Shown: positions 38,572 to 63,062, numbered from the stretch's first letter. The stretch is DNA of 64,000 nucleotides from Bdellovibrionota bacterium (GCA_041751875.1 JBGSIC010000029.1:2598-66597), one strand, 5' to 3'. The notes: generated from the letters alone by a model not told the origin. Numbers and translations: made by a program.

Positions 38572-41004
<2,433 letters not shown>

Positions 41005-41005
41005 C

Positions 41006-41491
41006 ATGCGCTGGGTCCTTCTTTTCCTCTTTCTGTTTCCCGCCTCAGTAATGGCGTCGGGCCGAAGCGAAATCGGTCTGGGCGCAACCGGTGCCGCCAT
41101 CAACTTCTCTTCTGCTGAAGATAATTTTGGCATCCAAGCCGAATATCACTACCTCATCTCCAAGGGTTTTCAATTTGGAACCCAAAGCGCTTTCCTGGTT
41201 CGCGATACTGGTGGCACGACCCACACCGGCGTAGTGGTCATGGTGGGCCCCACCATTAATTTCCCGTTCGATACCTCTCTCATCAAAAGTTTTTTTTGGA
41301 CGACTTTGGTCGGGTTCTCCCACGATAGCGCAACCGCCAGTGGTCTGAAGTTCACCTTCCTTACTAAGCTGGGTAAGCGCTTTGCGATTTCTAACCAAAT
41401 AGCCTATTCGCCTCATGCCGTTCTCACCAAAGTGGCTGGCCAGAAGGTGGCTCTCACCATCAACCTGGTTTCCTTCCGCCTCGTCTTCTAG
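41006..41491 (+). CDS. Small outer-membrane beta-barrel hypothetical protein
   Basis: Signal peptide and C-terminal ...SFRLVF. The Phe terminus is typical of OM barrels. Confidence 0.4.
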   Translation: MRWVLLFLFLFPASVMASGRSEIGLGATGAAINFSSAEDNFGIQAEYHYLISKGFQFGTQSAFLVRDTGGTTHTGVVVMVGPTINFPFDTSLIKSFFWTTLVGFSHDSATASGLKFTFLTKLGKRFAISNQIAYSPHAVLTKVAGQKVALTINLVSFRLVF

Positions 41492-47702: not shown

Positions 47703-47779
47703 GGGCGGATAGCTCAGTTGGTTAGAGCGACGCGTTTACACCGCGTAGGTCCGGGGTTCGAGCCCCTGTCCGCCCACCA
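47703..47779 (+). tRNA. tRNA-Val (anticodon TAC)
   Basis: Cloverleaf with acceptor stem GGGCGGA/TCCGCCC. D-arm AGCTCAGTTGGTTAGAGC, anticodon loop TTTACAC, T-arm GGTTCGAGCCC, and a 3' ACCA. Confidence 0.85.
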
Positions 47780-47925: not shown

Positions 47926-49182
47926 TTAAGTTTTAGCCTGTTGCCACCTTCGTGAAAGATGGCAGAGTGTTTTTCCCCATAAGGCGAAACCCGCGCGAAT
48001 ACACGCAACGAGGCGGTAAGGAATAAATTTTTCCTTAAACACAACCGTCGAGAGGGTTTTGGTTACACGTGAATTGCCTATCGCTTGAGCCACGCTCAAC
48101 AATTCTTCCGCGAAGCTCGTCTCGCTAAGCCCCTTCCGAGGACCAAAATAGTAAGTGGATGGCGGTATTTTACTGAGATCAAGGGGGACCGGGAATGTGC
48201 GGTATTTTTTCAGGCTACCGAGGGTTTCCAAAGCGAGCATGGTGCGAAGGCATTTTGCGCAACGCCCACAGTTGTTGTCTTGGGAGGTGTTTTCCCAGCA
48301 GACTCGAAGCGATTGGTATGTGACTTCCCACTGGCTAATGACCCTTAGCTTTTCTATTCGAGAGAGGTTGGAGCCGTGGTGGAAAACCTCCAAGTGGGGA
48401 CGGGAAAGAAGATGATCGGTCATGGGATTGGAGCCAAGCGGAGGCACAATCAGAGAGTAGCGATTGGTTGAACCGATAAAGACACGCCGAATGCCCCTGC
48501 TCATAAGAAGAGCGATCGTGGAAAGAAACGCACCGTGGACCATTAACCAGTCACATTTGGGGTCTAGAAAATGGCGAAGATTAGTGCGTATCGGAATCAT
48601 CTCAACGCCCATGTGCCCAAGAAGGTCCGCGTACTTGGCGCTGAGGCGGTTAAAAACAAATTCCTCCGAAAGGGGGATGTCAAACCCGTGGAGGAAAAAA
48701 CAATACTGGATCTGAAAGGGGGGCAGCGGTTCGTTGTGGGGAAGGTGGCTGTGGAGCGTGTAGAAGGAGTCCACGCCACCGGAGAAAAAACTCGCTGCTC
48801 GTTGATTTATTTCGAGAGAGTTGCCTTGATCAGCGTACGGATTTGCTGAAATATTTATGGTTTCGAAATCCGAGGGCCGCCAAAATTTGAAGTATTTTTG
48901 ATATTCTTTTGCGCCGTAAAGGAAGCGCTCACTCACGCTGCCATCCACCAGAAGGTCTTTCTTTGTGGCCATCGCAGGGAAAAGCAAAGCCGAGGCAAGC
49001 CAGTCCTCCGAGTCCGATAAAAAGCTTTCATATTTTTTTGGCACGGAAAAGTAGAGTTCGTCGGGGAACCCCGTTTCGCTGGTAAGAATTTTCGAGCTCA
49101 GCTTGATCGTTTCGCCAATGGTTTGCTTTTTAGGGTAGGAAGCGTTGAGGGTGTCAGTAATCAATTGGCTCCACCGTTCCAA
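47926..49182 (-). CDS. PP-loop (SGGxDS) ATP pyrophosphatase-family protein with N-terminal extension and C-terminal CxxCxxC
   Basis: FFSGGVDSF PP-loop near residue 150 and CGRCAKC near the C-terminus. This resembles QueC or N-acetyl-sugar amidotransferase-type enzymes. Confidence 0.5.
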   Translation of the reverse strand: MERWSQLITDTLNASYPKKQTIGETIKLSSKILTSETGFPDELYFSVPKKYESFLSDSEDWLASALLFPAMATKKDLLVDGSVSERFLYGAKEYQKYFKFWRPSDFETINISANPYADQGNSLEINQRAASFFSGGVDSFYTLHSHLPHNEPLPPFQIQYCFFLHGFDIPLSEEFVFNRLSAKYADLLGHMGVEMIPIRTNLRHFLDPKCDWLMVHGAFLSTIALLMSRGIRRVFIGSTNRYSLIVPPLGSNPMTDHLLSRPHLEVFHHGSNLSRIEKLRVISQWEVTYQSLRVCWENTSQDNNCGRCAKCLRTMLALETLGSLKKYRTFPVPLDLSKIPPSTYYFGPRKGLSETSFAEELLSVAQAIGNSRVTKTLSTVVFKEKFIPYRLVACIRAGFALWGKTLCHLSRRWQQAKT

Positions 49183-50048
49183 GAAATTTTGAGGAAGTGA
49201 GGTTTAAGAGAATAGTGATAAACACTATCGTTCTTAAAATAGTTATTCGGATGAAAATAAACCCGCTTGTTTAACAGGGTGGCGGCAATGCAAATGTGAA
49301 GGCGATCGGTATGGATGGCGGAGAACTGATTCAAACATTTTAGTAGATTAGCGCTCACCCTGCCGACGATCTCAGGTGTCCACCCCGGCTCGTAAAGATG
49401 GAAGGAAAGGTCCACGTTGCGGCTGGGTAGTGCCTTGCGTAGACTCTCCTTGTCCTGTCTAAAAGCAAAGAGTTCCTCGTTTCCGCACCACCGCCATAAA
49501 AGTAACTTCATTTTTGTTAGGTTGATGTGAGCAGACCGCACGAAGGTCGAAAACGGACTTTGCTGCGAAGCGTGGCTTGGGGGCCGTTGGAGTACTTTTT
49601 TCGTGTCGAGAGCGAACACTAGGTCGGGATGCAGGTGCACTCGACTCCTATTTGCAAGCTTTGTGACGTAGGCGAATGAAACAGGCTCTCGGCAAAACAC
49701 CTCAACGCGTTCATCAAAGGAGCGTATGAGCGTTTCATGCCCTAAGATAGTTTGAGGTAGCAGAATGAGTCTGCGTACTTTTGGAAGGGCCATGCGAATG
49801 AAGTTAGCGGCGTCATTATACAGAGGAACCAAGTTTCCTCCCCCGCCGTAAACAACGATTTTGTTTGTCAGGTCGGTGTGAGGAAAGATTAGCTGATAGG
49901 AAATAGAGTACTGATTAAATAGCTGATAGGTGGCTTCGGCAATTAACTGATCCCCGGCCCACCCAGGGTTCGGGAAATAGTAAACCAGCTCGTCGCTAAG
50001 GCTTTGTAGACATTGACTGAGAGAAGAGAGTGTCTTCCACGTCTTCAT
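49161..50048 (-). CDS. Hypothetical protein, possibly polysaccharide pyruvyl-transferase-like
   Basis: The N-terminal NPGWAGD segment resembles the GN.GD motif of pyruvyl transferases. This is weak. Confidence 0.35.
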   Translation of the reverse strand: MKTWKTLSSLSQCLQSLSDELVYYFPNPGWAGDQLIAEATYQLFNQYSISYQLIFPHTDLTNKIVVYGGGGNLVPLYNDAANFIRMALPKVRRLILLPQTILGHETLIRSFDERVEVFCREPVSFAYVTKLANRSRVHLHPDLVFALDTKKVLQRPPSHASQQSPFSTFVRSAHINLTKMKLLLWRWCGNEELFAFRQDKESLRKALPSRNVDLSFHLYEPGWTPEIVGRVSANLLKCLNQFSAIHTDRLHICIAATLLNKRVYFHPNNYFKNDSVYHYSLKPHFLKISWNGGAN

Positions 50049-51037
50049 ATCTGAGTAGCTGACCGCTTAGATCGGAGGCTGGAAAAAACGGGTCCGAAAG
50101 CCGGCCAATCGATTAGCACAAAAGCCATTAGTACATAGGGAGTGAAAGTGACGTCTAAAAGCCAATCGCTGACAACGTGAAAGACTATTGCGTTACATAG
50201 AAAGAAGTTTCGAAGCCACGGGCCGAAAAGAGCTAGTGGAAACATTAGCTGGATTCCCAGCGAAGCTAGGGCGAGAAGGATTGTAAGAGGGCGATAAGAG
50301 GCGAGGGTGCGGCCGGCCGCTGACGCCGGAGTACTGTAAATATAGTGAGTCAAGCCGAAGCCATCTTTCCAAGTTTCTTCTGGCTCGTTACTGCCAAATA
50401 GCTGGTGCGTGGAGTCTGTTGAGCGACTCAGATAGAAAGTTAAAGTATCGCCTCTAAGCCAAGCCTTGCCACCGTGGCGGATTTTGGCTACCCCAGCGTT
50501 GAAATAGAAGGAACAGATCAGGCAAAGAATAAGAACCGTTCCCCAGCGTGGGACGGGCTCTCCTTTGAGGGCAGTGAGTACGGGCTTTTTCTGGCGTCGC
50601 GCTCGTAGTAGGGAGTCAATCGACCAAGAATCTACTCCGGGGGCGAAAACGAGTGCACAAAGAACAAGGAACACTAGTGCGCTTACGTGATGGAAGGCGC
50701 CCCATGAGGAGAGCAGGCATGAGACGTAGCCGAAGCAGAGTGTTACCCCTAGTAAGGAGAGGCGCGTCACGATACCCAGTAACGCAAAGAGCGCGCACAG
50801 AAAAAAGAAAGCCGTAAACAGCCTAAGGAGTTCAGGCGTCAACGGCGCGTGAAGACCCAACCGCACCAGTATCGACCCGGGATCCATCAAAAAAGAATCC
50901 GCGCCATCATAATGCGCAAGGACGCCGAGATCCCTTCGGATTCGGGGGAGAATGACCAGCGCTACTATCACCATGCGAAGATACGGGGCAGGGTTCCAAA
51001 CTTGTTTTGAAAAGAGAAAAGCCGTCACTGTTTGCAT
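50045..51037 (-). CDS. Polytopic integral membrane protein (HTTM-like?), function unknown
   Basis: About eight predicted TM helices. There is a 4-nt overlap with the upstream gene. Confidence 0.4.
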   Translation of the reverse strand: MQTVTAFLFSKQVWNPAPYLRMVIVALVILPRIRRDLGVLAHYDGADSFLMDPGSILVRLGLHAPLTPELLRLFTAFFFLCALFALLGIVTRLSLLGVTLCFGYVSCLLSSWGAFHHVSALVFLVLCALVFAPGVDSWSIDSLLRARRQKKPVLTALKGEPVPRWGTVLILCLICSFYFNAGVAKIRHGGKAWLRGDTLTFYLSRSTDSTHQLFGSNEPEETWKDGFGLTHYIYSTPASAAGRTLASYRPLTILLALASLGIQLMFPLALFGPWLRNFFLCNAIVFHVVSDWLLDVTFTPYVLMAFVLIDWPAFGPVFSSLRSKRSATQI

Positions 51038-51576
51038 TACAAGTTCGATTCCCAGGTGTGTGTGAAGCGTTGTTCTTCAGGAGAGTAAAAGCCAACGGTA
51101 CGGCGTTTCATTGGCCGTTCTTTCCCGTCAACCGAGAGAATGGAGACCCGCAGTTTGACACCAGGCTCAACCCAAGAGGGTCGCTTCAAATGGAGCTCCT
51201 TAAAAATCGATCTAAAGTACACACTTAAACGTTCACGGAATAAGCTAGGGTTGTCGTTTACGATTGCGGAGTGCGGTGACCGGCCAAGGGCGCCGTAAAC
51301 ATGGAGAAAAAAGTGGCGCATGGTTGGCATCTCCCTCCAGTAGAGGTCGTGGGCACGAAGCTCTCGGTCAGTTCCGTCGGCACTCTGTAACAGCCATTCA
51401 AAGCGATATAGCCTGTCTGTGGGCGAGGCAAACATGGGTGCAGATGTAAACGGCCAGACTTCACCGGCGGTGAAAAGGACCATGATTTGAGGTGACAAAA
51501 GTGCCAAAAACAGAAAATAAACGCCGAAACGCTGATGGCGAGTCACAGTAGGCAGAGGCACAATCTTTTTCACCAT
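51037..51576 (-). CDS. Hypothetical membrane-anchored protein
   Basis: N-terminal TM segment. Its start abuts the downstream membrane-protein gene, suggesting translational coupling. Confidence 0.35.
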   Translation of the reverse strand: MVKKIVPLPTVTRHQRFGVYFLFLALLSPQIMVLFTAGEVWPFTSAPMFASPTDRLYRFEWLLQSADGTDRELRAHDLYWREMPTMRHFFLHVYGALGRSPHSAIVNDNPSLFRERLSVYFRSIFKELHLKRPSWVEPGVKLRVSILSVDGKERPMKRRTVGFYSPEEQRFTHTWESNL

Positions 51577-51618: not shown

Positions 51619-52578
51619 TCAGGAGGATGGGGATGATTTTTTATCCCCTAGGAGTCTTTCGGCAAGAATGTGCATTAAGGGTTTATCTTTTTCGAAATGC
51701 AAAACCGACTTGTTGGGAGGGAGCCTCCTTAGAAAGTGTCCTGCCGCTGAGGGATCCTCTAACATCTTCTGTTTGTCCGCCGGCAGTTTGGCGTAAAAAT
51801 CAAGAAAGGAGATAGTGAGATTACATTTTTGAGCGAGCAAGCAAAAGAAGAAGTCCTCAGGAAGGTCTGAAAGATAGTGTTCCGTACTCCAAGCCGCTAA
51901 GAGTGCGGTGTGGGCCGTGGGAGAGGACAGTATACGCCGTATCGAATTTGTTCGTAAAAAGTAACATCCCCCCTGAAAATATTTGTGGCCATGTCCAAAA
52001 TGAGTTTGTCCTACTATTTGAGAAGCACAAGAAGCGGCGACTTCAAAAATGTTTGAGTTTAGAAATAAGGTATCGCTATCCGTTTTTACAAGTAGGTCGT
52101 TACTTTTCATTTCTGAATAAATTTCTTTAAAAGCTTGCCGCGTACTAACAATAACGTTGGAACCGCCCCACGAAAAAGGCAGAGGTGTCCGGGTAAGGGT
52201 CGAGCCGGAAGGGCAACGCAGTAAAAGTTGCCTAACTTCATCGGCATTTATGGGATCCTTCCTGTCTTCGAAGAGGCGGACCGAGTAAGCAAAAGGAAGG
52301 TCCAGAGCCAGAAGACTGTCGACCGAAGCCTTTAAGTACCGGAAATGTGCGCCGCAGGTAAAATAGGCGATGAAAAAATGGGGCCTTTCGGAGAAAACTT
52401 CCGGCTTTGGCATCTGAAAGGGAGCCCAAAGCAGAGACTTAAAATCGAGGAGTAACAATCGCAAGCCATGTAAAGGCGTCAGGAGCGCCAGATGGAGAAG
52501 AGACCATAAATTTCTATGTCGTAGAGGCGGGGTCAACAAGGTCTCTTTGAAGCACGATTCCACTGTTTTTAGAGGCAT
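51619..52578 (-). CDS. Hypothetical protein (possible DxD glycosyltransferase-like)
   Basis: A TDSDTLF segment in a Rossmann-like context. This is weak. Confidence 0.3.
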   Translation of the reverse strand: MPLKTVESCFKETLLTPPLRHRNLWSLLHLALLTPLHGLRLLLLDFKSLLWAPFQMPKPEVFSERPHFFIAYFTCGAHFRYLKASVDSLLALDLPFAYSVRLFEDRKDPINADEVRQLLLRCPSGSTLTRTPLPFSWGGSNVIVSTRQAFKEIYSEMKSNDLLVKTDSDTLFLNSNIFEVAASCASQIVGQTHFGHGHKYFQGGCYFLRTNSIRRILSSPTAHTALLAAWSTEHYLSDLPEDFFFCLLAQKCNLTISFLDFYAKLPADKQKMLEDPSAAGHFLRRLPPNKSVLHFEKDKPLMHILAERLLGDKKSSPSS

Positions 52579-52781: not shown

Positions 52782-54074
52782 TTGCGCCATTTATCTGCTC
52801 AATTTTATTTTATTTTTTTCCTTGGGTTTGCTTCTCAAGCTCTAGGGGTCGGCCTTTTAGTTGGTAAAACACCCGGTGCGTTTCATCGCTCCTCGGTCCA
52901 GGTGGTCTATGTAAAAGAGGGCGACCGTAACACCCTTACTTTCTACAGCGACTTTCGCGGGGAAAACGGATCATTCGTCATTCTGCTGCCGTTTCCTTTC
53001 GCTGTACCAGAAGAAAGCATAGCCTTGCTCGAGCACGCACCGATGGAACAGCTCGAAGCCTTTTCGGCCCCCATTTTATTTGAACAGATGGATCCGGATC
53101 CTTGTTTAGAAGAAAATTTAGCCCCCAAGGCGGCGGGTGGCCCTGTCAAAGCTCACCTTCTGGGCAGTAGTCCGCAACGTCGTACGCGGGGAAGTTACAA
53201 AGCAGTAGCTTTAAGTGCGCCCCAATCTCAAAAAATACAGGATTGGTTGCAAGAAGAAGGGTATCAACCTGCCCCCGAAAGCGTGCCTTGGTTGAAGGAA
53301 CAAGCTAGAAAAAATCATTTCATCGCGATTAAAGTGGAACTCAAGGAACACAGCCGACTGGCGTATCAGTACCTACGGCCTATCCAAGTAACATTTACCG
53401 GCGCTGAATTTAGTTTACCTTTGGAACTGGGACCCGCGCCCCAGGGAGAAGATCAAGACCTTTATCTCTACGTGATCACAGACCAAGGGCAAGTAGCTCC
53501 CGCTAATTACGCGATTACGCAGTTACCCTCGAACAAAGATATTCCTGCTTACATCAAGTATCGATTTGAAGATTTTTACCGGGAAGTATTTTTACAAGCG
53601 AGTCGGAAAAATAAAGGTGCGTTTCTCGAATACGCGGGAAGTGCGTTGCGTTGTGAGAATTGTAATGAGGATACGTTAACGCTTGAATCGCTTTCGGCAT
53701 TGGGCGTGCAGTGGCTATCGGGCTTAAAAGACAAGAAGGCAATTGCTGCTGCAAAAGAAGCATACCTTTCGCGTTACCATCTTCGGGGACGCAAGGAATC
53801 GCTTCCGCAGAAGATCACTTTTCAAGCCGTGGCGGATTTGCCGCCATTTCAGGAAGTGTTTTTGGTACGCCACGCCTGGATGGGTTCGTCGCGCTCTTGC
53901 GCCCAGGCGAATGCTTACGCCAACACGCTCAGTGCCCGCCGCGAAAGCGAAGCGCGCACGCTAGCTAGTTTGACGGGATGGAGCATTGAGCGAATTTTGA
54001 ACAACATGACGCCTGCTCAGAAAGACCAAAAGAAGCATTGGTACGAGAGACTCTTCGATGAAGAAAAAAAATGA
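52782..54074 (+). CDS. Secreted hypothetical protein
   Basis: Signal peptide, 430 aa. The 3' end overlaps the proC start by 17 nt. Confidence 0.45.
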   Translation: MRHLSAQFYFIFFLGFASQALGVGLLVGKTPGAFHRSSVQVVYVKEGDRNTLTFYSDFRGENGSFVILLPFPFAVPEESIALLEHAPMEQLEAFSAPILFEQMDPDPCLEENLAPKAAGGPVKAHLLGSSPQRRTRGSYKAVALSAPQSQKIQDWLQEEGYQPAPESVPWLKEQARKNHFIAIKVELKEHSRLAYQYLRPIQVTFTGAEFSLPLELGPAPQGEDQDLYLYVITDQGQVAPANYAITQLPSNKDIPAYIKYRFEDFYREVFLQASRKNKGAFLEYAGSALRCENCNEDTLTLESLSALGVQWLSGLKDKKAIAAAKEAYLSRYHLRGRKESLPQKITFQAVADLPPFQEVFLVRHAWMGSSRSCAQANAYANTLSARRESEARTLASLTGWSIERILNNMTPAQKDQKKHWYERLFDEEKK

Positions 54075-56309: not shown

Positions 56310-57278
56310 TTAGAAATGAACGAGAAGAGCGCCGAGAAACTGGCTGTTGGCGTTTCCCAAGAAGTCAGAAACTGAAAAATCATCCCGGTTGTATTGCACA
56401 CCAAGCGAAACTTTCTCGAAGAGTCTGTAGTAGGCACCTAAACGGATTCGGCTGAAGGCGGGACCGTTCCCTCCCGCATCTCCCGTAGCGCTATTGATTA
56501 CGCCGTAAATAATATCTGCTGAAATCAAAAAATCTTCGAAAGGGGTAATCTCAATACCGGCGATTCCGTGAATTCCCCTAACACCAAAGCTTAGCGAGTT
56601 TTGGGAACCAGAATCCGTGGTCACGGAGGTCATTCCCAGGATGCTATACCCAACGCCCGCCTTTGCGACCATGCGCATCGATGCAAATTCGAAAGGAAGC
56701 TGCCCTTTGGCACTAAAGCTACCCCCGACCACCTTACCGCTTGTCTCGTTGGTAAAAGAACCGCCAGGAACGGAAGTGAGTTCCGTGTCTGTTTGGGTGG
56801 GATAATTCTGAAAAAAGCCGTCTAGTTCAAATCCGAAATTTTCCCATCGGAGATCGGCATTCAGACCCAGATGCATACTGCTGCCGACTTGACCTTGCCC
56901 GTGGGCAGAAAAGGAAGCATTCGAGATGCCGCCGCTTGCGCCCAACCGAAGCTCCATTTCTTTTTCACTTCGCGGGAGATCGTATTCAGCGGAGGAAAAG
57001 GCGCTAGAGCTGTTCACGCTGGCGAGGCGTCGTCGAGGAATTTGCTTCTTTTTTGTTCGCAGTGTCTTGGCGCGCAACTCATCTTCCGAGTAGACACGTT
57101 TGCGCTTGGGTTCAAACTTCCTGCTTTTAATAGTGCGCAGTCTGTTAATGCGAATTTGATCAGAAGAGATGGGGGCAAACGCGTCGGCATAGAGGTTTGT
57201 CGATGCTATCCACGAAGAGGCATAAATCATGATGTAGGCTAACCGACGCATTTGCGAACCTCGGGAAAAAGAGCTCAA
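56310..57278 (-). CDS. Outer-membrane beta-barrel hypothetical protein
   Basis: Signal peptide. The C-terminus ...GALLVHF ends in Phe. Confidence 0.5.
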   Translation of the reverse strand: MSSFSRGSQMRRLAYIMIYASSWIASTNLYADAFAPISSDQIRINRLRTIKSRKFEPKRKRVYSEDELRAKTLRTKKKQIPRRRLASVNSSSAFSSAEYDLPRSEKEMELRLGASGGISNASFSAHGQGQVGSSMHLGLNADLRWENFGFELDGFFQNYPTQTDTELTSVPGGSFTNETSGKVVGGSFSAKGQLPFEFASMRMVAKAGVGYSILGMTSVTTDSGSQNSLSFGVRGIHGIAGIEITPFEDFLISADIIYGVINSATGDAGGNGPAFSRIRLGAYYRLFEKVSLGVQYNRDDFSVSDFLGNANSQFLGALLVHF

Positions 57279-57509
57279 AAAGGGACCTATATTCAGCTGT
57301 ATTCTGCAAGTGGGGTGCCACGAAATCAGGCTCGGCCAGAGAGGGAAAACTGTCTAACTCGTGGCAAGAAAAGCAATTTTCGACGGCCCAGAGGGGGAGT
57401 ACGGGGCCAAACCCGCATATCTTAGTGAAATCGTAGCGGAAAGAGGGTGTACCCGGCAGGCACGTTCTGGTATCCTTCAGTAAATTTGACTACATAGGTA
57501 CCATCACCC

Positions 57510-59498
57510 GTGGCAAGCAGCAAAATAACGACTTCAAGTACGGCCGAGTATTTCGCGAAGAACCTTCAGCAGGTTGGTTTTTCTTCGTCCACAAAGGCCG
57601 TTCTGACAACTCTGAAAGAAGCAGTCGATAACTCACTCGACGCTTGTGAAGACGCAGGCATTCTTCCTGAAATTAAAATTCTGATCGAAAAAAAGGGCGA
57701 GGGGACAGGTAAGAACACCGATCTCATTCGAGTAAAGATTGAAGACAATGGTCCGGGTTTAGATCTCGAAGACCTACCGAAGGTTTTTGGTGAATATTTG
57801 GCCTCTTCCAAATTTGGTCGAGGGCGTTGTTCGCGCGGGCAGCAAGGGATTGGTATTTCCGCGGCGACTACCTGGGCCCAGCTGACTTCCGCCAAGGGTG
57901 CCAGCGTGATTACCAAAACGAAAAAAATGCGCGCGGCGATCTCTGCGGTGGTGAACGTTGATATCAAGCAAAACAAAGGCATCCTGAAGAACAAAGAAAG
58001 TGTGAATTGGGATCGGCCGCATGGCCTTAGCGTTGAATTTTTGATCGACGGAAGAATGCAGCTTAATGGGGAGGGCGGGTTACTCACCTATATTAACGGT
58101 ACCGCATTAGTAAACCCGCATCTGGATCTCGAATATAAAATTGGCGAAGACGCCAAGCAAAAAATTAAGCGAGTCGCGGACCTAGTGCCCAACATCCCTG
58201 AAGCGACGATGCCCCACCCTCATACGATGAAGTTGGGTGAATTTTTGCATCACTCTCACCTATTCGGAAAAGTTGAGCTTCGCAAGTGGTTGAAAAAAGG
58301 TTTCACGCGTATCTCGGATGGAGTGATTGATGAGATCGTTAAGAACGGACTCAGCAAAGGGTTTCTCACGCGCCCTGTAAACCAGCTCTCCGAAGGCGAC
58401 ATGAAGCAGGTTTACCAGGCCGTTCAGAAAACGGAGCTCATGGCTCCTAGTACGCGGTCGGTAATGATTATCGGCGAACATGCGCTTGCGATGAGCATCA
58501 AGCGCATGGGCGAAATTGATTTCTTCTCGGTCGTTACCCGCAAACCCAAGATCTGTGATTCGAAACCCGTGGCTGTTGAAGTCGCCATCGCGCGATTCTT
58601 GGATCGCTCGGGCTCTTCGGTGCCGGATGAAGAGGTCGGTCCCGTGACCGTTTTGCGTTTCGCCAATCGGGTACCGCTGCAGTTTGATAAGTCGGCTTGT
58701 GCGATTGTTCAAGCGATTGAAACCGTGAACTGGCGCAGCTATGGCCTTTCTCAAGCCAAAAGCAGTTTGCCGAGTGGACCCTACGTCATCGCGGTGAGCG
58801 TGGTCTCACCTTTTATTAAGTTTAAAAACGCCTCCAAAGAAACCATTGATGCGAGTGATGAACTTGTAGAGGAAATCCGTCGTACGCTGATGCAGGCGGG
58901 ACAGAAGCTTTCACGCCACATTAATAAAGAAAATCGTGAAGCCGATCTAGAGAAAAAATTACAGCACATTGAACAGTTCTGTCCGATTCTAGTGGAATGC
59001 TTGTGCCGTATTACAGAAGCTCCCGCGAAAAGAAAGAAAAAGGCTACCGAAGGCATCATGAAGCTTCTGGGTCGCGACGTGAATAAAGCCGAAGAAGAAT
59101 TACAAGCGGCTAAAGAGGGCGTGAACAAGGTCGTCACAAAGCAGAAAGAAAAATTCCAGAAAGCCATTGCGAAGAATAAGAAAGCCTCGGGTGAGGACTC
59201 TGAGCCGGAAGAAGATGTCCGACCTAACGCTGAGGACGTTGTCACGCCTGAAGAGGTGAATGAGGAAATTGAGCCTGAACTAGAGGCCGCGGAAGAAGCC
59301 GAAAGCGAAACGGAAAAGCCCAAAAAGGGCGGAAAGACCAAGAAGGGCAAGACGGCAGCACCTGCCAAAGAGGCAAGTGCGAAGAAAAAGGCGGCGCCCA
59401 AAGCGGAAAAAAAGGCGAAGCCTAGCGAAAAGAAGGCCAAAAAGCCCAAGGGTAAAGCAAAAGACGACGAAGAAGAAGTCGACGAGCTGGAGGTTTAA
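57510..59498 (+). CDS. top6B: Type IIB DNA topoisomerase (topo VI) subunit B, GHKL ATPase, with Lys/Ala/Glu-rich C-terminal tail
   Basis: Bergerat-fold N-box EAVDNSLDA, G1 EDNGPGL and the Top6B-specific G2 SRGQQGIGISAA. H2TH/transducer-length body. The C-terminal roughly 110 aa are KKAxPKAEKKAK-type repeats. Confidence 0.8.
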   Translation: MASSKITTSSTAEYFAKNLQQVGFSSSTKAVLTTLKEAVDNSLDACEDAGILPEIKILIEKKGEGTGKNTDLIRVKIEDNGPGLDLEDLPKVFGEYLASSKFGRGRCSRGQQGIGISAATTWAQLTSAKGASVITKTKKMRAAISAVVNVDIKQNKGILKNKESVNWDRPHGLSVEFLIDGRMQLNGEGGLLTYINGTALVNPHLDLEYKIGEDAKQKIKRVADLVPNIPEATMPHPHTMKLGEFLHHSHLFGKVELRKWLKKGFTRISDGVIDEIVKNGLSKGFLTRPVNQLSEGDMKQVYQAVQKTELMAPSTRSVMIIGEHALAMSIKRMGEIDFFSVVTRKPKICDSKPVAVEVAIARFLDRSGSSVPDEEVGPVTVLRFANRVPLQFDKSACAIVQAIETVNWRSYGLSQAKSSLPSGPYVIAVSVVSPFIKFKNASKETIDASDELVEEIRRTLMQAGQKLSRHINKENREADLEKKLQHIEQFCPILVECLCRITEAPAKRKKKATEGIMKLLGRDVNKAEEELQAAKEGVNKVVTKQKEKFQKAIAKNKKASGEDSEPEEDVRPNAEDVVTPEEVNEEIEPELEAAEEAESETEKPKKGGKTKKGKTAAPAKEASAKKKAAPKAEKKAKPSEKKAKKPKGKAKDDEEEVDELEV

Positions 59499-60638
59499 AT
59501 GACAGAAACAGATATCCCAAAAGTGAGTAAGGCTCTTTGTCAGCGCTTATTAACCGACCTGGAGAACGCACGACGCCCGGTAATGGAAGCGATCAAGTGC
59601 TCTCTCGATAACGCTATCTATTCGCCAAAGGTCGGCTACCTCACGCCGGGAGATAAGAGAGTACGTACCGAACTTAACGTCAGTTCTGTGCAGAAAATGT
59701 CGCGTGCCATTTTCCTCTTGGAGATACTTCTGCGCAACGTAGACACGGGTGCGGTAAACACGAAACGCGAACTCTATTACATCGCAAAAGGTGAAGTAAA
59801 ACACTCGCCCGATCTCAAGCCTTTGGATTTCGCTTCGCAGGAAGAAAGCGATTCCATTATTGATTTCATTTGCGAAATGCTCGTTTGTTACCGAGAAGAA
59901 CTAAACTGTTTTGCGAACGATCGCGGCGGCCAAACCTATTCAGAAGCGTTGGTGGTTACCGAGACCTTGCCGGATGGGAGCAAGGCTCAAGTAGATCTTG
60001 GCTCTTTGGGAACGACACCCTTCCAGCCAAAGAACCGACCCCAAAGCTTGAAGCTTAAAGCCAAGAAGAAAATCGATTTCTGCTTAGTTGTGGAATCGGA
60101 AGGTACGGCTAACACCTTTGTCGCCAATGGGTTCTGTCGGCGTAACAAGGCTATCTTAGTGGGTGCACAAGGGGTTCCTAGTAACGCGGTTCGTGGATGG
60201 GTGAAGCTCATTCAAGAAGAACTTAGCGTTCCTATTTATTTCTTTGGTGATCTGGACGCCTATACTCTTCAAAATATTTATCGCACCCTGAAGGCGGGAT
60301 CAGCAGCCAGTTTGATACGCAATTCGGATTTCTCTGCTCCTAAAGTCCATTTTCTCGGTGTGCTCCCCGAAGACATCAAAAAGTATGATTTGCATGACTA
60401 CGAAGTAAGAGAAGCTGACTTGCAGGAAGCTCGTGCTCTTAAGAAGGCCCGAGACGCCCTAGAGAACGATCCCTTTTTCAAAGATCCTAAAAATAAGGAT
60501 CTCGCCAACATTCTCAAGTGGCTCTTGAAGAACAAGCGCCGTTGCGAGCAACAGGCATTCTTCATGGTTGATCCGCGCGATCCGACTCGCCCGGAGAAAA
60601 TCATCATCGATAAGATCAGAAGAAAGAATTACGTCTGA
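59499..60638 (+). CDS. top6A: Type IIB DNA topoisomerase (topo VI) subunit A / Spo11-like (winged-helix with catalytic Tyr + Toprim)
   Basis: RELYYIAKGE catalytic-Tyr context. Toprim Glu in VVESEGT and DxD in YFFGDLDAYT. The start codon abuts the top6B stop (TAAATG). Confidence 0.8.
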   Translation: MTETDIPKVSKALCQRLLTDLENARRPVMEAIKCSLDNAIYSPKVGYLTPGDKRVRTELNVSSVQKMSRAIFLLEILLRNVDTGAVNTKRELYYIAKGEVKHSPDLKPLDFASQEESDSIIDFICEMLVCYREELNCFANDRGGQTYSEALVVTETLPDGSKAQVDLGSLGTTPFQPKNRPQSLKLKAKKKIDFCLVVESEGTANTFVANGFCRRNKAILVGAQGVPSNAVRGWVKLIQEELSVPIYFFGDLDAYTLQNIYRTLKAGSAASLIRNSDFSAPKVHFLGVLPEDIKKYDLHDYEVREADLQEARALKKARDALENDPFFKDPKNKDLANILKWLLKNKRRCEQQAFFMVDPRDPTRPEKIIIDKIRRKNYV

Positions 60639-60761
60639 GCGAGAAACCACTCGCAAAAAGAATAGAGCGAGCCCCGTTTCGTCCAACCAAATTCAGCCCT
60701 TAGGCCGGGCTTCGCCCGGCCGTCTGGCAAAGGTGCCAGGCCGCCTAAGCTATGGTAGACC

Positions 60762-63062
60762 TTGCTCTATTTGGCGGGAGGAACCCTTTTGGACTATCTG
60801 CGTGGACTAAACGAAAAGCAGCGGCTGGCCGTGGAATACGGCAACGGCCCACTTTTAGTTTTGGCTGGGGCAGGCTCCGGCAAAACCCGGGTTCTTACGC
60901 ACCGGATTGCCCATCTGATTGCGCACCATCGGGTTGATCCGATGCAGATCTTCGCTGTGACCTTCACGAATAAAGCAGCCGCTGAAATGCGGGGACGAGT
61001 GCAAAAGCTGCTCAGCCAGCATTTCAACTGGAATATTAGTGAACGTGAACTCTGGGTTAGCACTTTCCATTCCGCGTGCGTACGCATTCTGCGCTCAGAC
61101 ATCCAACACCTGGGCTACAATCCTCAATTTACGATTTACGACGACTCGGATCAGCTATCGGTCATCAAAGCGGCGATGAAGGAACTTAAGATCGCTGAGC
61201 AGACGATGAGTGCGAAGGCCATTCAATCGCGCATCAATAAGATAAAAAATGATGGAGATGATCACTCCACTTACCGTTCTCAATACGGTGGCCCCCAGGA
61301 AGATGCATTCGTGCGGGTCTTTGAAAGATACGCGCAGGCTCTACAGCTTTCTTCTGCTCTCGATTTTGCCGATCTTATTCTACTTGTTGTGAGGCTTTTC
61401 CAGAGAAACCCTCGTGTTTTAAAAGGGTACCAAGAACGATTCCAACACGTTTTGATCGATGAATACCAAGATACGAACCGGTGTCAGTATTTGTTTATGA
61501 AGCTCCTCGCAGGGGAGAGAGCCAATATTTGCGCCGTGGGCGACGAGGACCAGTCTATCTATCGATGGCGCGGAGCGGATATCTCGAACATTCTAAATTT
61601 TGAACAAGATTATCCGAATGCGCAAATCTTTAAGCTCGAAGAAAATTACCGCTCCACAAAAAATATTATTGAAGCGGCTAGCAGGGTCATTTCCCACAAT
61701 ACAGAGCGTAGAGATAAAGAGCTTTGGACTCAGAATGGGCAGGGCGAGAAGATTAATCTGATTGAGGCTTACGATGAGCATGATGAAGCGTTAAAGGTGA
61801 GCGCGGAAATCAGTGCTCGCTTGGGGCAGAATATTTCGCTCAACCAAATGGCTATCTTCTATCGTACCAATGCGCAGTCGCGTGTGATCGAAGATACAAT
61901 GCGTGCTAAGGGCGTGAACTACCAGATTTTCGGTGGGCTTAAGTTCTACGCCCGTCTGGAAATCAAGGACGCATTGGCCTACCTGCGGCTCTTGGTGAAC
62001 CCAGACGACGATGTTAGTTTTCGGCGTATTGTGAACGTACCTGCGCGAGGGATTGGGGCAAAGTCTCTGGAAAAACTTGCTAGCCGAGCCTCTGAGTTAG
62101 GAATTAGTCACCTAGCACTTCTTCTGCAAATCTTTGAAGGCAAGCAGCAAGTCGATCTCGGGCGAGGCGTGAAAAATTTCAAAACTTTTTACGATATCTT
62201 ACTTAGCCTGAGAAAGTCGTATGAAAATCTTTTGCCCTCTGACCTTTTAAGTGTGGTTTTAGAAGACTCGGGCTACCGCGAAAGTTTGGCGCAGGAAAAA
62301 ACCGTCGAATCACAAAGTCGCTTAGAGAACTTGGCGGAGCTAAAGCAAAGTATCGTCGAGTATGAGCTGCGAGTGGGCGCAGATAATCCTAACGCTCCAA
62401 TTACTCTTGAGGGTTTTCTCCAAGAAATCGCGCTTGTTTCTGATACGGACAAGTTTGATCCCGAAGCGCCGGCTCTCAAAATGATGACCATCCACATGGC
62501 GAAAGGGCTCGAATTCGATTTCGTGTCCATCGTGGGCCTGGAAGAAGAACTTTTCCCTAGCGTGCGTGCTTGGGAGGCTGAAGATCCGGCTAATGTGGAA
62601 GAAGAGCGACGCCTTTTCTATGTCGCGATGACTCGGGCACGAAGAGCCCTGAGCCTCTTTTTTGCGAAAAATCGAACCGTGTTTGGAACCAGCCACTTTC
62701 GCGTCACTAGTCGCTTTGTGGAGGAAATACCCCCAGAGTATGTGGAACTGCATAAGGCGGATTATTTTTCTCGCCGCCGAGGGGGAGGAATAGGGCGTCC
62801 GGGGCTTCCGGGCAGGTCGCTTCAAGATCTCGATGAAGATTTTGATCAATCCAGTCTTTATGAAGGTGCCTACACCGATATCGATGGCGAGAGTGACGGT
62901 GACGATGAGGACGGCTTAAGGGCTGGTAACCGTGTGGTCCATCCCATTTTTGGAGAAGGAATCGTGCGTAAAGTCTACGGAGCAGACAAGCTTTTGGTCG
63001 AGTTTGCAGGCCGCGGAGTGAAGAAAATCTCACGCAAATTTAGTCAATTAAAGGGTGTCTGA
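60762..63062 (+). CDS. pcrA: ATP-dependent DNA helicase PcrA/UvrD (SF1A)
   Basis: Walker A AGAGSGKT, motifs II DEYQDTN and VGDEDQSIYRWRGA, and the C-terminal Tudor-like GNRVVHPIFGEGIV. The true start may be an alternative codon. Confidence 0.9.
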   Translation: MLYLAGGTLLDYLRGLNEKQRLAVEYGNGPLLVLAGAGSGKTRVLTHRIAHLIAHHRVDPMQIFAVTFTNKAAAEMRGRVQKLLSQHFNWNISERELWVSTFHSACVRILRSDIQHLGYNPQFTIYDDSDQLSVIKAAMKELKIAEQTMSAKAIQSRINKIKNDGDDHSTYRSQYGGPQEDAFVRVFERYAQALQLSSALDFADLILLVVRLFQRNPRVLKGYQERFQHVLIDEYQDTNRCQYLFMKLLAGERANICAVGDEDQSIYRWRGADISNILNFEQDYPNAQIFKLEENYRSTKNIIEAASRVISHNTERRDKELWTQNGQGEKINLIEAYDEHDEALKVSAEISARLGQNISLNQMAIFYRTNAQSRVIEDTMRAKGVNYQIFGGLKFYARLEIKDALAYLRLLVNPDDDVSFRRIVNVPARGIGAKSLEKLASRASELGISHLALLLQIFEGKQQVDLGRGVKNFKTFYDILLSLRKSYENLLPSDLLSVVLEDSGYRESLAQEKTVESQSRLENLAELKQSIVEYELRVGADNPNAPITLEGFLQEIALVSDTDKFDPEAPALKMMTIHMAKGLEFDFVSIVGLEEELFPSVRAWEAEDPANVEEERRLFYVAMTRARRALSLFFAKNRTVFGTSHFRVTSRFVEEIPPEYVELHKADYFSRRRGGGIGRPGLPGRSLQDLDEDFDQSSLYEGAYTDIDGESDGDDEDGLRAGNRVVHPIFGEGIVRKVYGADKLLVEFAGRGVKKISRKFSQLKGV

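What the first reader, a model, noticed from the sequence alone, without database searches (positions are those of the whole stretch)
57510..60638. Complete two-subunit topo VI (type IIB topoisomerase) operon in a bacterial chromosome
Two adjacent, translationally coupled genes (stop/start TAAATG) encode a Top6B-like GHKL ATPase and a Top6A/Spo11-like subunit. The B subunit carries the diagnostic SRGQQGIG box, N-box EAVDNSLDA and DNGPGL. The A subunit carries the catalytic Tyr in RELYYIAKGE and a Toprim E...DxD. Topo VI is the archaeal and plant type II enzyme and is only sporadically present in bacteria. Here it sits among ordinary housekeeping genes (gltA, pcrA, gatCA), not on an obvious mobile element. 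Whether it is a chromosome-decatenating enzyme, a Mks/Wadjet-type accessory nuclease paralogue, or something else is open.
Basis: partly seen in the sequence, partly recalled or inferred. Interest (0 to 1): 0.7.

Follow-up and report, generated by a model that had tools for sequence, protein, structure and literature searches.

The report
Ordinary bacterial topoisomerase VI operon
These two genes encode a genuine, intact topoisomerase VI (a DNA-untangling enzyme best known from archaea and plants), but the enzyme is already documented in Bdellovibrio and is conserved across that bacterial phylum, so the call is correct and not new.

Summary
Profile, PDB-sequence and fold searches all give topo VI B and A as the only strong matches. 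The MutL/MORC, JetD/MksG, topo VIII, Mini-A and Spo11-like alternatives all fail.

The window is core chromosome of an uncultured Bdellovibrionota bacterium. Close orthologues (A subunit at least 75% identical among the 80 loci listed), with B-A adjacency preserved, occur in at least 419 species-level genomes spanning the Bdellovibrio, Bacteriovorax and Oligoflexus lineages. Codon usage is native, and no plasmid or phage relative exists. In this lineage the enzyme is therefore an old, vertically inherited housekeeping gene pair, not a sporadic acquisition.

Topo VI in Bdellovibrio bacteriovorus is published (Allen & Maxwell 2024; a 2023 FEMS review). Its B subunit is among 201 putatively essential genes in a 109J Tn-seq screen. 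The most likely role is an ATP-dependent decatenase/relaxase standing in for the topo IV that Bdellovibrio lacks.

Two minor clade features are worth recording. A lineage-variable, predicted-disordered tail on Top6B carries a histone H1-like Lys/Ala/Pro stretch. A conserved non-basic loop replaces the M. mazei 'KGRR' T-segment sensor.

Novelty: already known. Interest: low.

The parts
57510..59498 (+). top6B, DNA topoisomerase VI subunit B (662 aa, GTG start)
   Evidence: ORF. NCBIfam equivalogs NF003218 (509 bits, cut-off 274) and TIGR01052 (386.3, cut-off 380.7) both pass. PDB M. mazei 2q2e_B E=3.7e-82. Foldseek top 16 hits are all Top6B, E 1e-27 to 1e-35.
57597..58199 (+). GHKL (Bergerat) ATPase domain, aa ~30-230. 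N-box E37/N41, G1 D79-N-G-P-G, G2 G110-Q-Q-G-I-G.
   Evidence: Pfam HATPase_c and HATPase_c_3. Alignment to S. shibatae E38/N42. Motifs invariant in 74/74 clade sequences. Block pLDDT is mostly 74-94, but the model has a low-confidence segment at aa 96-126 (block means 33-54) that includes the G2 box.
58212..58445 (+). Helix-two-turn-helix (H2TH) domain, aa ~235-312. K262 and R267 correspond to M. mazei R263 and K268.
   Evidence: Gap-poor HMMER alignment to M. mazei Top6B 214-313. Domain boundaries from PMC13040014. Block pLDDT is 63-94 and exceeds 84 only from about aa 250; helices at 242-250, 257-264, 270-278, 283-287 and 295-307. K262/R267 conservation.
58446..59015 (+). Transducer domain with switch lysine K443 (FKNASKET), W408-R-S-Y411 (WKxY motif) and long stalk helices
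   Evidence: Pfam Topo-VIb_trans 2e-45, covering aa 313-483 and profile positions 1-159 of 159. K443 aligns to S. shibatae K427. FKNASKET is present in 73/74 sequences; W408 and Y411 are invariant.
59025..59180 (+). Clade-conserved C-terminal helix (aa 506-557; 'RITKAP..RKKKA.EGL.KLLGRD' region) extending the stalk
   Evidence: Conserved across 74 loci and in alignment A1. Predicted helix H506-557.
59181..59495 (+). Low-complexity, predicted-disordered tail (aa 558-662): an acidic stretch, then a Lys/Ala/Pro-rich histone H1-like stretch (~603-650), ending in the acidic sequence DDEEEVDELEV
   Evidence: Composition. Tail length (measured from the residue-500 equivalent) and content vary from 55 to 331 aa across loci. 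This is the longest tail among the 120 closest homologues. pLDDT is below 40 with no secondary structure. No DNA tandem repeat.
59489..59501 (+). Coupling junction: GGAGG Shine-Dalgarno inside the end of top6B, TAA stop (59496-59498) directly followed by the top6A ATG (59499-59501)
   Evidence: Sequence. Junction spacing in the 81 sequences analysed: -4 nt in 25, -1 in 14, 0 in 4, and most others under 40 nt.
59499..60638 (+). top6A, DNA topoisomerase VI subunit A (379 aa)
   Evidence: ORF. Pfam TP6A_N 5e-13 and TOP6A-Spo11_Toprim 6e-38. NCBIfam NF003335 E=1.3e-117 at 392.9 bits, just under its 424 cut-off. PDB 1d3y E=1.6e-30. Foldseek hits at E<=0.001 are all Top6A.
59694..59906 (+). Winged-helix (5Y-CAP) DNA-cleavage domain with catalytic Tyr94 in R90-E-L-Y-Y94
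   Evidence: Pfam TP6A_N aa 66-136. Y94 aligns to the second Tyr of M. jannaschii REAYY (chain residue 35, i.e. Y103, assuming the 1D3Y construct starts at residue 69, which is recalled and not given by any tool). R90, Y93 and Y94 are invariant in 81/81.
60078..60572 (+). Toprim metal-binding domain: E199, D251-L-D253
   Evidence: Pfam PF21180 aa 194-358. Aligns to M. jannaschii E197/D249/D251. Invariant in 81/81.

Best explanation
The two genes encode a canonical, catalytically intact DNA topoisomerase VI. Two Top6A subunits (winged-helix Tyr94 plus Toprim E199/D251/D253) would cleave a gate DNA duplex through 5'-phosphotyrosine links. Two Top6B subunits (GHKL ATPase, H2TH, and a transducer with switch Lys443) would dimerise on ATP, capture a second duplex and drive it through the break. 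The genes are translationally coupled, which favours equal amounts of the two subunits. In this organism, an uncultured Bdellovibrionota bacterium, the pair is an old, vertically inherited core-chromosome gene pair. It most likely serves as the cell's dedicated decatenase and relaxase alongside gyrase, filling the role that topo IV has in most bacteria. The disordered Lys/Ala/Pro-rich tail on Top6B probably adds non-specific DNA affinity. Shown here: gene structure, domain content, every catalytic residue, clade-wide conservation, and the chromosomal, non-mobile context. Inferred: enzymatic activity, the decatenase role, absence of topo IV in this particular genome, and the function of the tail.
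For: Identity: Pfam and NCBIfam hits; PDB sequence hits to Top6B at 3.7e-82 and Top6A at 1.6e-30, with residue-level alignment of E37/N41, G1, G2, K443, Y94, E199 and D251xD253; AF2 models whose only strong structural matches are Top6B and Top6A. Purifying selection: all catalytic residues are invariant in 74 B and 81 A clade sequences. Across the syntenic loci Top6A is 80-86% identical, against GltA 71-78%, PcrA 63-74% and ProC mostly 57-65% (one truncated hit at 84%). Vertical, chromosomal inheritance: 419 species genomes carry close relatives, the 80 listed being nearly all labelled Bdellovibrionota, including Bacteriovorax, Oligoflexus and Pseudobacteriovorax. B-A adjacency holds in 80/81 loci and proC-gltA...pcrA-gatC synteny in about 20-24 loci. 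Codon usage and GC3 lie within the window's own range. There are no flanking repeats or tRNA, no bacterial plasmid or phage relatives, and the window encodes FtsK, Rho, Tig, ClpPX, Lon, MetK and RNase J. Clade depth: the next-best Top6B among 1.84 billion representatives is only 38-39% identical. Role: Allen & Maxwell 2024 report that topo VI-bearing bacteria outside Pseudomonadota and Terrabacteria, with B. bacteriovorus as an example, have gyrase but no ParC/ParE. They also report, as unpublished data, that M. mazei topo VI complements an E. coli parE(ts) mutant. 'DNA topoisomerase VI subunit B' has zero transposon insertions and sits in the list of 201 putatively essential genes of B. bacteriovorus 109J. 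M. mazei topo VI is a preferential decatenase (PMC8837201 abstract).
Against: No biochemical data exist for any bacterial topo VI (Allen & Maxwell state that further work is needed to establish its role in bacteria). Absence of parC/parE was not tested in this genome, because only 64 kb is available. The Bdellovibrio Tn-seq essential list contains the B subunit but not the A subunit, and the full fitness table is truncated in the held copy. The M. mazei KGRR loop, reported as essential for strand passage there, is replaced here by a conserved non-basic R-x-Q-L-N-G-E-G-G loop, so T-segment handling may differ. NCBIfam's Top6A equivalog score is slightly below its cut-off. A FEMS review lists a 'Top IV (Bd0005)' in B. 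bacteriovorus, which conflicts with Allen & Maxwell's classification.
Confidence: 0.85

Rival explanations
1. Topo VI here is a specialised accessory enzyme and not the general decatenase. For example, it could be tuned to the polyploid filamentous growth phase or to the histone-coated nucleoid reported for Bdellovibrio, while another type II enzyme (gyrase or an unrecognised topo IV) handles routine decatenation.
For: [quoted passage not shown] The clade has distinctive Top6B features: a non-basic KGRR-equivalent loop and a variable H1-like tail. In plants topo VI is tied to endoreduplication. A review lists a 'Top IV (Bd0005)' and histones in B. bacteriovorus.
Against: Allen & Maxwell's GyrA-box classification finds no ParC/ParE outside Pseudomonadota and Terrabacteria. 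Top6B is putatively essential even in axenic host-independent growth. Conservation is very strong across lineages. By my own knowledge rather than any test here, not all of those lineages are filamentous predators.
Confidence: 0.12
2. The pair is a Spo11/Top6B-like double-strand-break generator: a nuclease that breaks DNA without strand passage, for example for recombination or programmed rearrangement.
For: Top6A and Spo11 cannot be separated by any single motif. A yeast Spo11 core-complex structure appears as a weak fold hit (8urq, E=2.9e-3).
Against: Top6B-like partners of Spo11 lack the N-box and the H2TH domain and have degenerate G1/G2 boxes. Here the N-box, G1, G2, switch Lys and H2TH are all intact and invariant. 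All strong sequence and fold hits are to true topo VI.
Confidence: 0.02
3. The A subunit is a Wadjet/MksBEFG-type (JetD/MksG) or Gabija-type Toprim nuclease, and the locus is a defence system.
For: JetD and MksG share the Toprim fold with Top6A. PADLOC gives a marginal JetD hit (E=0.036, 11 bits, aa 217-265 only).
Against: The hit is restricted to about 50 Toprim residues and is not significant. Top6B has no defence-profile hit. No JetABC/MksBEF genes are adjacent; the neighbours are gltA, an outer-membrane beta-barrel candidate and pcrA. No MksG/JetD structure appears among the fold hits listed.
Confidence: 0.005
4. It is a mobile-element-borne type IIB enzyme (topo VIII or a Mini-A relative) recently integrated into the chromosome.
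For: Topo VIII and Mini-A are the type IIB forms typically reported in bacteria on plasmids and integrated elements.
Against: There are two separate canonical subunits that match Top6B/Top6A models. Codon usage is native. There are no flanking repeats, tRNA or integrase. No bacterial plasmid or phage homologue exists. Synteny and adjacency are conserved across hundreds of species.
Confidence: 0.005

Closest known systems
Bdellovibrio bacteriovorus topo VI (Bd2864; adjacent Bd2865 listed as 'Top II' in the review; EP01_RS10260 = Top6B in strain 109J)
   Same: Same phylum-level clade. The two adjacent genes are annotated as topo VI A and B. The enzyme is listed in Allen & Maxwell 2024 (Pseudobdellovibrionaceae) and in a 2023 FEMS review, and Top6B is putatively essential by Tn-seq. 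Relatives labelled Bdellovibrio are about 79-82% identical in Top6A.
   Different: This copy comes from a different, uncultured lineage; the closest MAGs are 85-86% identical in Top6A. It has the longest Top6B tail among its 120 nearest homologues. The B. bacteriovorus proteins themselves were not aligned here.
Methanosarcina mazei topo VI (PDB 2Q2E; cryo-EM 9O0G/9O8P)
   Same: Same domain order in both subunits, all catalytic residues conserved, and the best PDB sequence match for Top6B (3.7e-82; fold E=1.7e-35). The H2TH basic residues R263 and K268 are conserved as K262 and R267, and WKxY is conserved as WRxY.
   Different: Identity is roughly 30% for Top6B (28-30% in the Foldseek alignments) and about 21-23% for Top6A. 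The Ig-like Top6B C-terminal domain is replaced by a helix plus a disordered Lys-rich tail. The KGRR loop (K186/R188/R189) aligns to non-basic L-N-G-E. K399 corresponds to N407 and R457 to Q465.
Methanocaldococcus jannaschii Top6A (PDB 1D3Y)
   Same: Best solved match for the A subunit (E=1.6e-30, against about 1e-17 to 1e-18 for M. mazei and S. shibatae). Y103, E197, D249 and D251 align to Y94, E199, D251 and D253. This fits the published placement of one bacterial Top6A cluster near the Methanococcales.
   Different: About 26-27% identity in the Foldseek alignment. The bacterial protein has roughly 65 extra N-terminal residues relative to the crystallised fragment.
Bacterial topoisomerase IV (ParC/ParE, type IIA)
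   Same: The inferred cellular job is the same: ATP-dependent decatenation of sister chromosomes and relaxation of supercoils alongside gyrase.
   Different: The cleavage core is not homologous (type IIB versus IIA). By textbook knowledge, topo VI uses a two-gate instead of a three-gate mechanism and makes a 2-nt instead of a 4-nt stagger. It is not a member of this family.
Streptomyces/actinobacterial TopA C-terminal lysine repeats
   Same: A Lys/Ala/Pro-rich low-complexity C-terminal tail on a topoisomerase. In TopA these repeats stabilise the enzyme-DNA complex and confer processivity (PMC5714199).
   Different: It is a different enzyme class (type IA). The analogy applies to the tail only, and tail function is untested here.

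Membership tests
Topo VI subunit B (Top6B) | GHKL/Bergerat ATP-binding motifs: N-box (E, N), G1-box (DxGxG) and G2-box (GxxGxG) | tested here: met
   E37/N41 in EAVDNSLDA, D79-N-G-P-G83 and G110-Q-Q-G-I-G115 align to S. shibatae E38/N42 and to the M. mazei motifs. They are invariant in 74/74 clade sequences. The G3-box was not checked separately.
Topo VI subunit B (Top6B) | H2TH domain between the GHKL and transducer domains (absent from Spo11 partners of the Top6B-like type) | tested here: met
   Continuous HMMER alignment to M. mazei residues 214-313. The AF2 model shows a helical domain at about 242-307 with block pLDDT 63-94, mostly above 76. Foldseek full-length matches to Top6B chains.
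Topo VI subunit B (Top6B) | Transducer domain carrying the switch lysine that contacts the ATP gamma-phosphate | tested here: met
   Pfam Topo-VIb_trans 2e-45 over the full profile. K443 aligns to S. shibatae K427. K443 is invariant, within FKNASKET present in 73/74 sequences.
Topo VI subunit B (Top6B) | Score above the curated equivalog cut-offs | tested here: met
   NF003218 509 bits (cut-off 274); TIGR01052 386.3 bits (cut-off 380.7).
Topo VI subunit B (Top6B) | Basic 'KGRR' T-segment-sensing loop. This is functionally required in M. mazei but is not a formal family criterion. | tested here: not met
   It aligns to L185-N-G-E188. The clade consensus is R-[IVL]-Q-L-[NQ]-G-[ED]-[GA]-G in 74/74 sequences. 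Most other Top6B clusters are basic at this position, but a minority are not, so this marks a clade variant and does not exclude membership.
Topo VI subunit B (Top6B) | Stalk WKxY DNA-binding motif | tested here: met
   W408-R409-S-Y411. W and Y are invariant; position 409 is R in 65 and K in 9 of 74 sequences.
Topo VI subunit A (Top6A/Spo11 superfamily) | Winged-helix (5Y-CAP) domain with the catalytic tyrosine | tested here: met
   Pfam TP6A_N 5e-13. Y94 aligns to M. jannaschii Y103. It is invariant in 81/81 sequences.
Topo VI subunit A (Top6A/Spo11 superfamily) | Toprim domain with the acidic Glu and the DxD metal-binding motif | tested here: met
   PF21180 6e-38. E199, D251 and D253 align to M. 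jannaschii E197, D249 and D251. They are invariant in 81/81 sequences.
Topo VI subunit A (Top6A/Spo11 superfamily) | Score above the curated NCBIfam equivalog cut-off | tested here: inconclusive
   The best model, NF003335, scores 392.9 bits (E=1.3e-117) against a cut-off of 424. Both Pfam gathering thresholds are passed.
Topo VI holoenzyme | A and B subunits encoded together and present as a pair | tested here: met
   The genes abut as TAA|ATG. Adjacency holds in 80/81 related loci.
Topo VI holoenzyme | ATP-dependent strand passage (relaxation or decatenation) via a 2-nt staggered break and A2B2 assembly | not testable with these tools
   Requires biochemistry. No bacterial topo VI has been characterised.
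JetD/MksG (Wadjet/MksBEFG nuclease) | Match to JetD/MksG profiles and adjacency to JetABC/MksBEF SMC-like genes | tested here: not met
   PADLOC JetD E=0.036, 11 bits, Toprim residues 217-265 only; no hit for the B subunit. The neighbours are gltA, a beta-barrel outer-membrane candidate and pcrA.
Topo VIII / Mini-A (mobile-element type IIB) | Carried on plasmids, viruses or integrated elements; non-canonical architecture (by my recollection, a fused B-A polypeptide for topo VIII and a stand-alone A for Mini-A) | tested here: not met
   Two separate canonical subunits. No bacterial plasmid or phage relatives. Native codon usage and conserved chromosomal synteny.
Spo11 / Top6B-like meiotic-type complex | B-like partner lacking the N-box and H2TH, with degenerate ATP-binding motifs | tested here: not met
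   The N-box, G1, G2, switch Lys and H2TH are all intact. Criteria taken.
MutL/MORC-type GHKL ATPases | Best profile or fold matches to MutL/MORC | tested here: not met
   MutL TIGR00585 E=0.0012 at 17.9 bits, against a cut-off of 180. MutL, GyrB and Hsp90 fold hits are about 20 orders of magnitude weaker than the Top6B hits.

The most novel reading that the evidence does not exclude
Topo VI was acquired once by the ancestor of Bdellovibrionota, became the phylum's sole and essential decatenase in place of topo IV, and has since diverged mechanistically from the archaeal enzyme. The basic T-segment-sensing loop was replaced by a conserved acidic/Gly loop, and DNA capture was delegated in many lineages to a disordered histone H1-like tail on Top6B. 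This could be an adaptation to a gyrase-supercoiled, histone-bearing nucleoid, or to segregating many chromosome copies from a polyploid filament, paralleling the link between plant topo VI and endoreduplication.
Probability: 0.2. Interest if true: 0.5.

Novelty: already known. Interest (0 to 1): 0.2.

Why it matters
As a discovery it matters little. Bacterial topo VI has been known since at least 2009, was catalogued in 17 bacterial families in 2024 (including one represented by Bdellovibrio bacteriovorus), and these genes are routinely auto-annotated as topo VI.

The residual value is contextual. The data here show that in Bdellovibrionota the enzyme is phylum-wide, strongly conserved, native in composition and probably essential. 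It is not a sporadic import. That makes the group a good bacterial system in which to ask why a type IIB enzyme can replace topo IV, a question the literature still describes as open.

The clade-specific Top6B features (the non-basic KGRR-equivalent loop and the variable Lys-rich disordered tail) give concrete, cheap mutagenesis targets. Because the enzyme has no human orthologue with topoisomerase activity, it is also a conceivable selective target. That is of limited practical interest for a predator of bacteria.

Tried and rejected
1. The PADLOC defence-profile scan gave only a marginal Toprim-restricted JetD hit, so the Wadjet/Mks idea is rejected.

2. tblastn of Top6A against 72,556 plasmids and 50,697 phage records found three haloarchaeal megaplasmids at about 27% identity and no phage, so the mobile-element origin is rejected.

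3. Island hallmarks were absent. GC is flat, codon usage is native, there are no direct repeats, the only tRNA is about 10 kb away, and no integrase-like domain was found in the neighbours scanned.

4. The promoter/terminator scan of 57200-60900 found no convincing sigma-70 promoter upstream of top6B and no + strand terminator after top6A, so it was uninformative.

5. I considered whether loss of the basic KGRR loop is unique to this clade. It is not: a minority of other Top6B clusters also lack basic residues there.

6. I considered whether the Lys-rich tail arises from a DNA tandem repeat in this window. No repeat was found.

7. The AF2 model of Top6A was only moderate (pLDDT 63, TM about 0.4-0.5 to 1D3Y). 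It was used only as a qualitative check.

8. Tn-seq status of the B. bacteriovorus A subunit: it is not in the essential list, and the full table is truncated in the held copy, so it is unresolved.

9. Presence or absence of parC/parE in this genome could not be tested.

Full report
**Observation**

The window contains two same-strand ORFs at exactly the reported coordinates: 57510..59498 (GTG start, 662 aa) and 59499..60638 (ATG, 379 aa). The first ends in TAA at 59496-59498, and the ATG of the second follows immediately. A GGAGG Shine-Dalgarno sits 5 nt upstream of that ATG, inside the last codons of the first gene. The GTG start is supported by the N-termini of homologues.

**Identity of the two proteins**

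- Pfam assigns the B protein Topo-VIb_trans (2e-45, whole profile) plus HATPase_c. It assigns the A protein TOP6A-Spo11_Toprim (6e-38) plus TP6A_N (5e-13).
- In NCBIfam the Top6B equivalogs NF003218 (509 bits against 274) and TIGR01052 (386 against 381) both pass. The best Top6A equivalog, NF003335, scores 392.9 bits (E=1e-117), just under its 424 cut-off. MutL reaches only 17.9 bits.
- Against PDB sequences, Top6B matches M. mazei 2Q2E_B at 3.7e-82 and S. shibatae Top6B at about 1e-60. Top6A matches M. jannaschii 1D3Y at 1.6e-30.
- Counting through those alignments, S. shibatae E38, N42 and K427 correspond to E37, N41 and K443. M. jannaschii Y103, E197, D249 and D251 correspond to Y94, E199, D251 and D253. 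The M. jannaschii numbering assumes the 1D3Y construct starts at residue 69, which is my recollection and not a tool result.
- An AlphaFold2 model of Top6B has confidently folded GHKL and H2TH domains and a long helical stalk, with one low-confidence loop at aa 96-126. Its 16 best PDB fold matches are all Top6B (E 1e-27 to 1e-35), followed by a gap of about 20 orders of magnitude to GyrB, MutL and Hsp90.
- The Top6A model is only moderate (pLDDT 63). Even so, its significant matches are exclusively Top6A, with yeast Spo11 next at E=2.9e-3.

**Rival readings**

- JetD/MksG: the defence-system profiles give only a non-significant JetD hit on about 50 Toprim residues (E=0.036) and nothing for the B subunit. 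No SMC-like genes are adjacent.
- Spo11/Top6B-like complex: excluded by the intact N-box, G1, G2, switch lysine and H2TH, which are the features the literature uses to separate true Top6B from Top6B-like proteins.
- Topo VIII or Mini-A: excluded by the two-subunit canonical architecture and the absence of any mobile-element context.

**Source organism and distribution**

The Top6A protein has more than 2,500 database relatives. The best 120 are all at least 81% identical, and where they are named they are called topo VI of Bdellovibrionales, 'Deltaproteobacteria' or similar. A scan of one genome per species found 419 genomes encoding a close relative. The 80 listed are all 75% or more identical and nearly all carry Bdellovibrionota labels, including Bdellovibrio, Bacteriovorax, Oligoflexus and Pseudobacteriovorax.

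- top6B lies immediately upstream of top6A in 80 of 81 loci; the exception is cut by a contig end. The junction is usually an overlap of 4 nt or 1 nt, or a short spacer.
- In the closer relatives, the wider neighbourhood (proC-gltA upstream, pcrA-gatC downstream) is also retained.
- In those same loci Top6A (80-86% identical) is more conserved than citrate synthase (71-78%) and PcrA (63-74%).
- Every catalytic residue is invariant in 74 Top6B and 81 Top6A sequences.
- In a search of 1.84 billion cluster representatives, the clade's own representatives are 59-77% identical to the query. Apart from two short fragments at 42-48%, the next proteins are only 38-39% identical; the few that carry names are euryarchaeal Top6B (Marine Group III, Methanolinea).
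- GC, GC3 and codon usage of both genes lie inside the distribution of the other 34 window genes analysed.
- There are no flanking repeats and no adjacent tRNA, and no bacterial plasmid or phage carries a relative.
- The rest of the window is core chromosome: FtsK, Rho, trigger factor, ClpP, ClpX, Lon, MetK, RNase J, ProC, GltA, PcrA and GatCA.

In this lineage the enzyme is therefore an old, vertically transmitted housekeeping function, not a sporadic acquisition.

**What is already known**

- Forterre & Gadelle (2009) already noted topo VI in three bacterial genomes as clear lateral transfers.
- Allen & Maxwell (2024) catalogued it in 17 bacterial families, including Pseudobdellovibrionaceae (B. 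bacteriovorus). They placed one bacterial Top6A cluster near the Methanococcales, which fits 1D3Y being the best PDB hit here. They also showed that topo VI-bearing bacteria outside Pseudomonadota and Terrabacteria have gyrase but lack ParC/ParE, and they report as unpublished data that M. mazei topo VI complements an E. coli parE(ts) mutant.
- A 2023 FEMS review lists topoisomerase VI (Bd2864) in B. bacteriovorus.
- In the Tn-seq study of strain 109J, 'DNA topoisomerase VI subunit B' (EP01_RS10260, next to Bd2866) has zero insertions and is in Data Set S3, the 201 putatively essential genes. The A subunit is not in that list, and the full table is truncated in the held copy.
- No bacterial topo VI has been characterised biochemically.

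**Most likely mechanism**

By homology, an A2B2 enzyme binds and bends a gate duplex across the Top6A dimer and the Top6B stalk and H2TH surfaces. ATP-driven dimerisation of the GHKL domains traps a transport duplex. Tyr94 and the Toprim Mg2+ site (E199, D251, D253) make a transient staggered double-strand break. The transport duplex passes through, and the break is resealed (mechanistic framework).

The cellular role is inferred from three things: the reported lack of topo IV in Bdellovibrio, the Tn-seq result, and the strength of purifying selection. On that basis the enzyme most probably decatenates chromosomes and relaxes supercoils alongside gyrase. I put about 97% on the identity and about 70% on this role.

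**Clade-specific details**

1. The M. mazei 'KGRR' loop (K186/R188/R189), reported as essential for strand passage and for T-segment and supercoil sensing, aligns here to L185-N-G-E188. All 74 clade sequences have R-[IVL]-Q-L-[NQ]-G-[ED]-[GA]-G, which is conserved but non-basic. Most other Top6B clusters are basic at this position, but a minority are not, so this is a variant feature and not a unique one.
2. WKxY is kept as W-R/K-x-Y, and two of the three H2TH basic residues are kept.
3. After a clade-conserved C-terminal helix (to about aa 557), Top6B ends in a low-complexity tail predicted to be disordered (pLDDT below 40). In this window the tail is acidic and then Lys/Ala/Pro-rich like histone H1, and it is the longest among the 120 nearest homologues. 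Across the phylum the C-terminal region, measured from residue 500, ranges from 55 residues with no Lys-rich tail to 331 residues. Some Oligoflexus-like genomes have long (KAAKAP)n-type repeats.

Two published parallels are suggestive. Archaeal Top6B C-terminal extensions occur only in gyrase-containing archaea. Lys repeats on Streptomyces TopA raise DNA affinity and processivity. Both are analogies only. The paper by Allen & Maxwell does not describe this tail.

**Verdict**

The finding is real and correctly interpreted, but it is an instance of an already described situation. Novelty is 'already known' and interest is low (0.2). The most novel reading the evidence does not exclude is a mechanistically diverged, sole essential decatenase adapted to Bdellovibrionota chromosome biology. 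It has modest probability (about 0.2) and moderate interest if true.

Noticed in passing
window 59181-59495 (Top6B aa 558-662); related loci L028, L057, L063, L065, L050, L077: Top6B carries a lineage-variable, predicted-disordered C-terminal tail. Here it is an acidic stretch, then a Lys/Ala/Pro-rich H1-like stretch, then DDEEEVDELEV. Oligoflexus-like loci have 200-330 aa tails with (KAAKAP)n or (AKTKAKSG)n repeats, while many Bacteriovorax- and Bdellovibrio-like loci have none. The topo VI papers read here do not describe it.
   Followed up: partly
window 58053-58085 (Top6B aa 182-192): The loop equivalent to the M. mazei KGRR T-segment sensor is non-basic (R-M-Q-L-N-G-E-G-G) and strictly conserved in 74/74 clade sequences. 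A minority of unrelated Top6B clusters also lack basic residues at this position.
   Followed up: yes
window 60639-60761, compared with loci L008-L010 and others: Here pcrA starts only 123 nt after top6A. In the closest relatives it starts about 1.1 kb or more further downstream (2.3-6.6 kb from the top6A start), so one or more genes present between top6A and pcrA in relatives are absent here.
   Followed up: no
window 52782-54074 (+): A 430-aa DUF2330 protein (5.7e-24) overlaps the proC start by 17 nt. It is syntenic, at about 33-35% identity, in 9 related loci upstream of proC-gltA-top6BA.
   Followed up: no
window 49161-51037 (-): An HTTM-domain protein lies next to a polysaccharide pyruvyl transferase. 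Neighbouring ORFs 47926-49182, 51037-51576 and 51619-52578 have no Pfam hit. This may be a surface-polysaccharide cluster.
   Followed up: no
window 1491-2729, 11469-12497, 18309-20378, 20456-21388, 40973-41491, 43263-44693: Several sizeable ORFs (172-689 aa) have no Pfam family at the thresholds used (E<=1e-5 or E<=1e-3, depending on the call).
   Followed up: no
window 363-1412 and 24164-25765: An M23 peptidase and a 533-aa trypsin-like serine protease. By general knowledge, hydrolases of these classes are abundant in predatory Bdellovibrionota.
   Followed up: no
window 27147-28178 (+): A protein combining an HATPase_c_2 (anti-sigma-factor-kinase-like) domain with a STAS-like DUF4325 domain.
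   Followed up: no
NCBIfam models NF003332-NF003337; plasmid hits H1-H3; FEMS review: Several NCBIfam Top6A models and the haloarchaeal plasmid annotations name the protein 'DNA topoisomerase IV subunit A'. The FEMS review lists 'Top IV (Bd0005)' and 'Top II (Bd2865)' in B. bacteriovorus, whereas Allen & Maxwell find no ParC/ParE. This is a naming inconsistency that can mislead topo IV presence/absence calls.
   Followed up: partly
window 47703-47779 (+): tRNA-Val (anticodon TAC) is the only RNA family or tRNA detected in the 64-kb window.
   Followed up: yes
L040 (labelled candidate division WWE3) and L079 (labelled Myxococcota): Two loci with 75-79% identical Top6A carry non-Bdellovibrionota labels. 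These are probably MAG binning or labelling errors and not real cross-phylum occurrences.
   Followed up: no
L025 (Top6B tail region): The Top6B tail in this locus runs through a stretch of X (masked or N bases) followed by an Arg-rich out-of-character sequence. This is probably an assembly or frame artefact.
   Followed up: no
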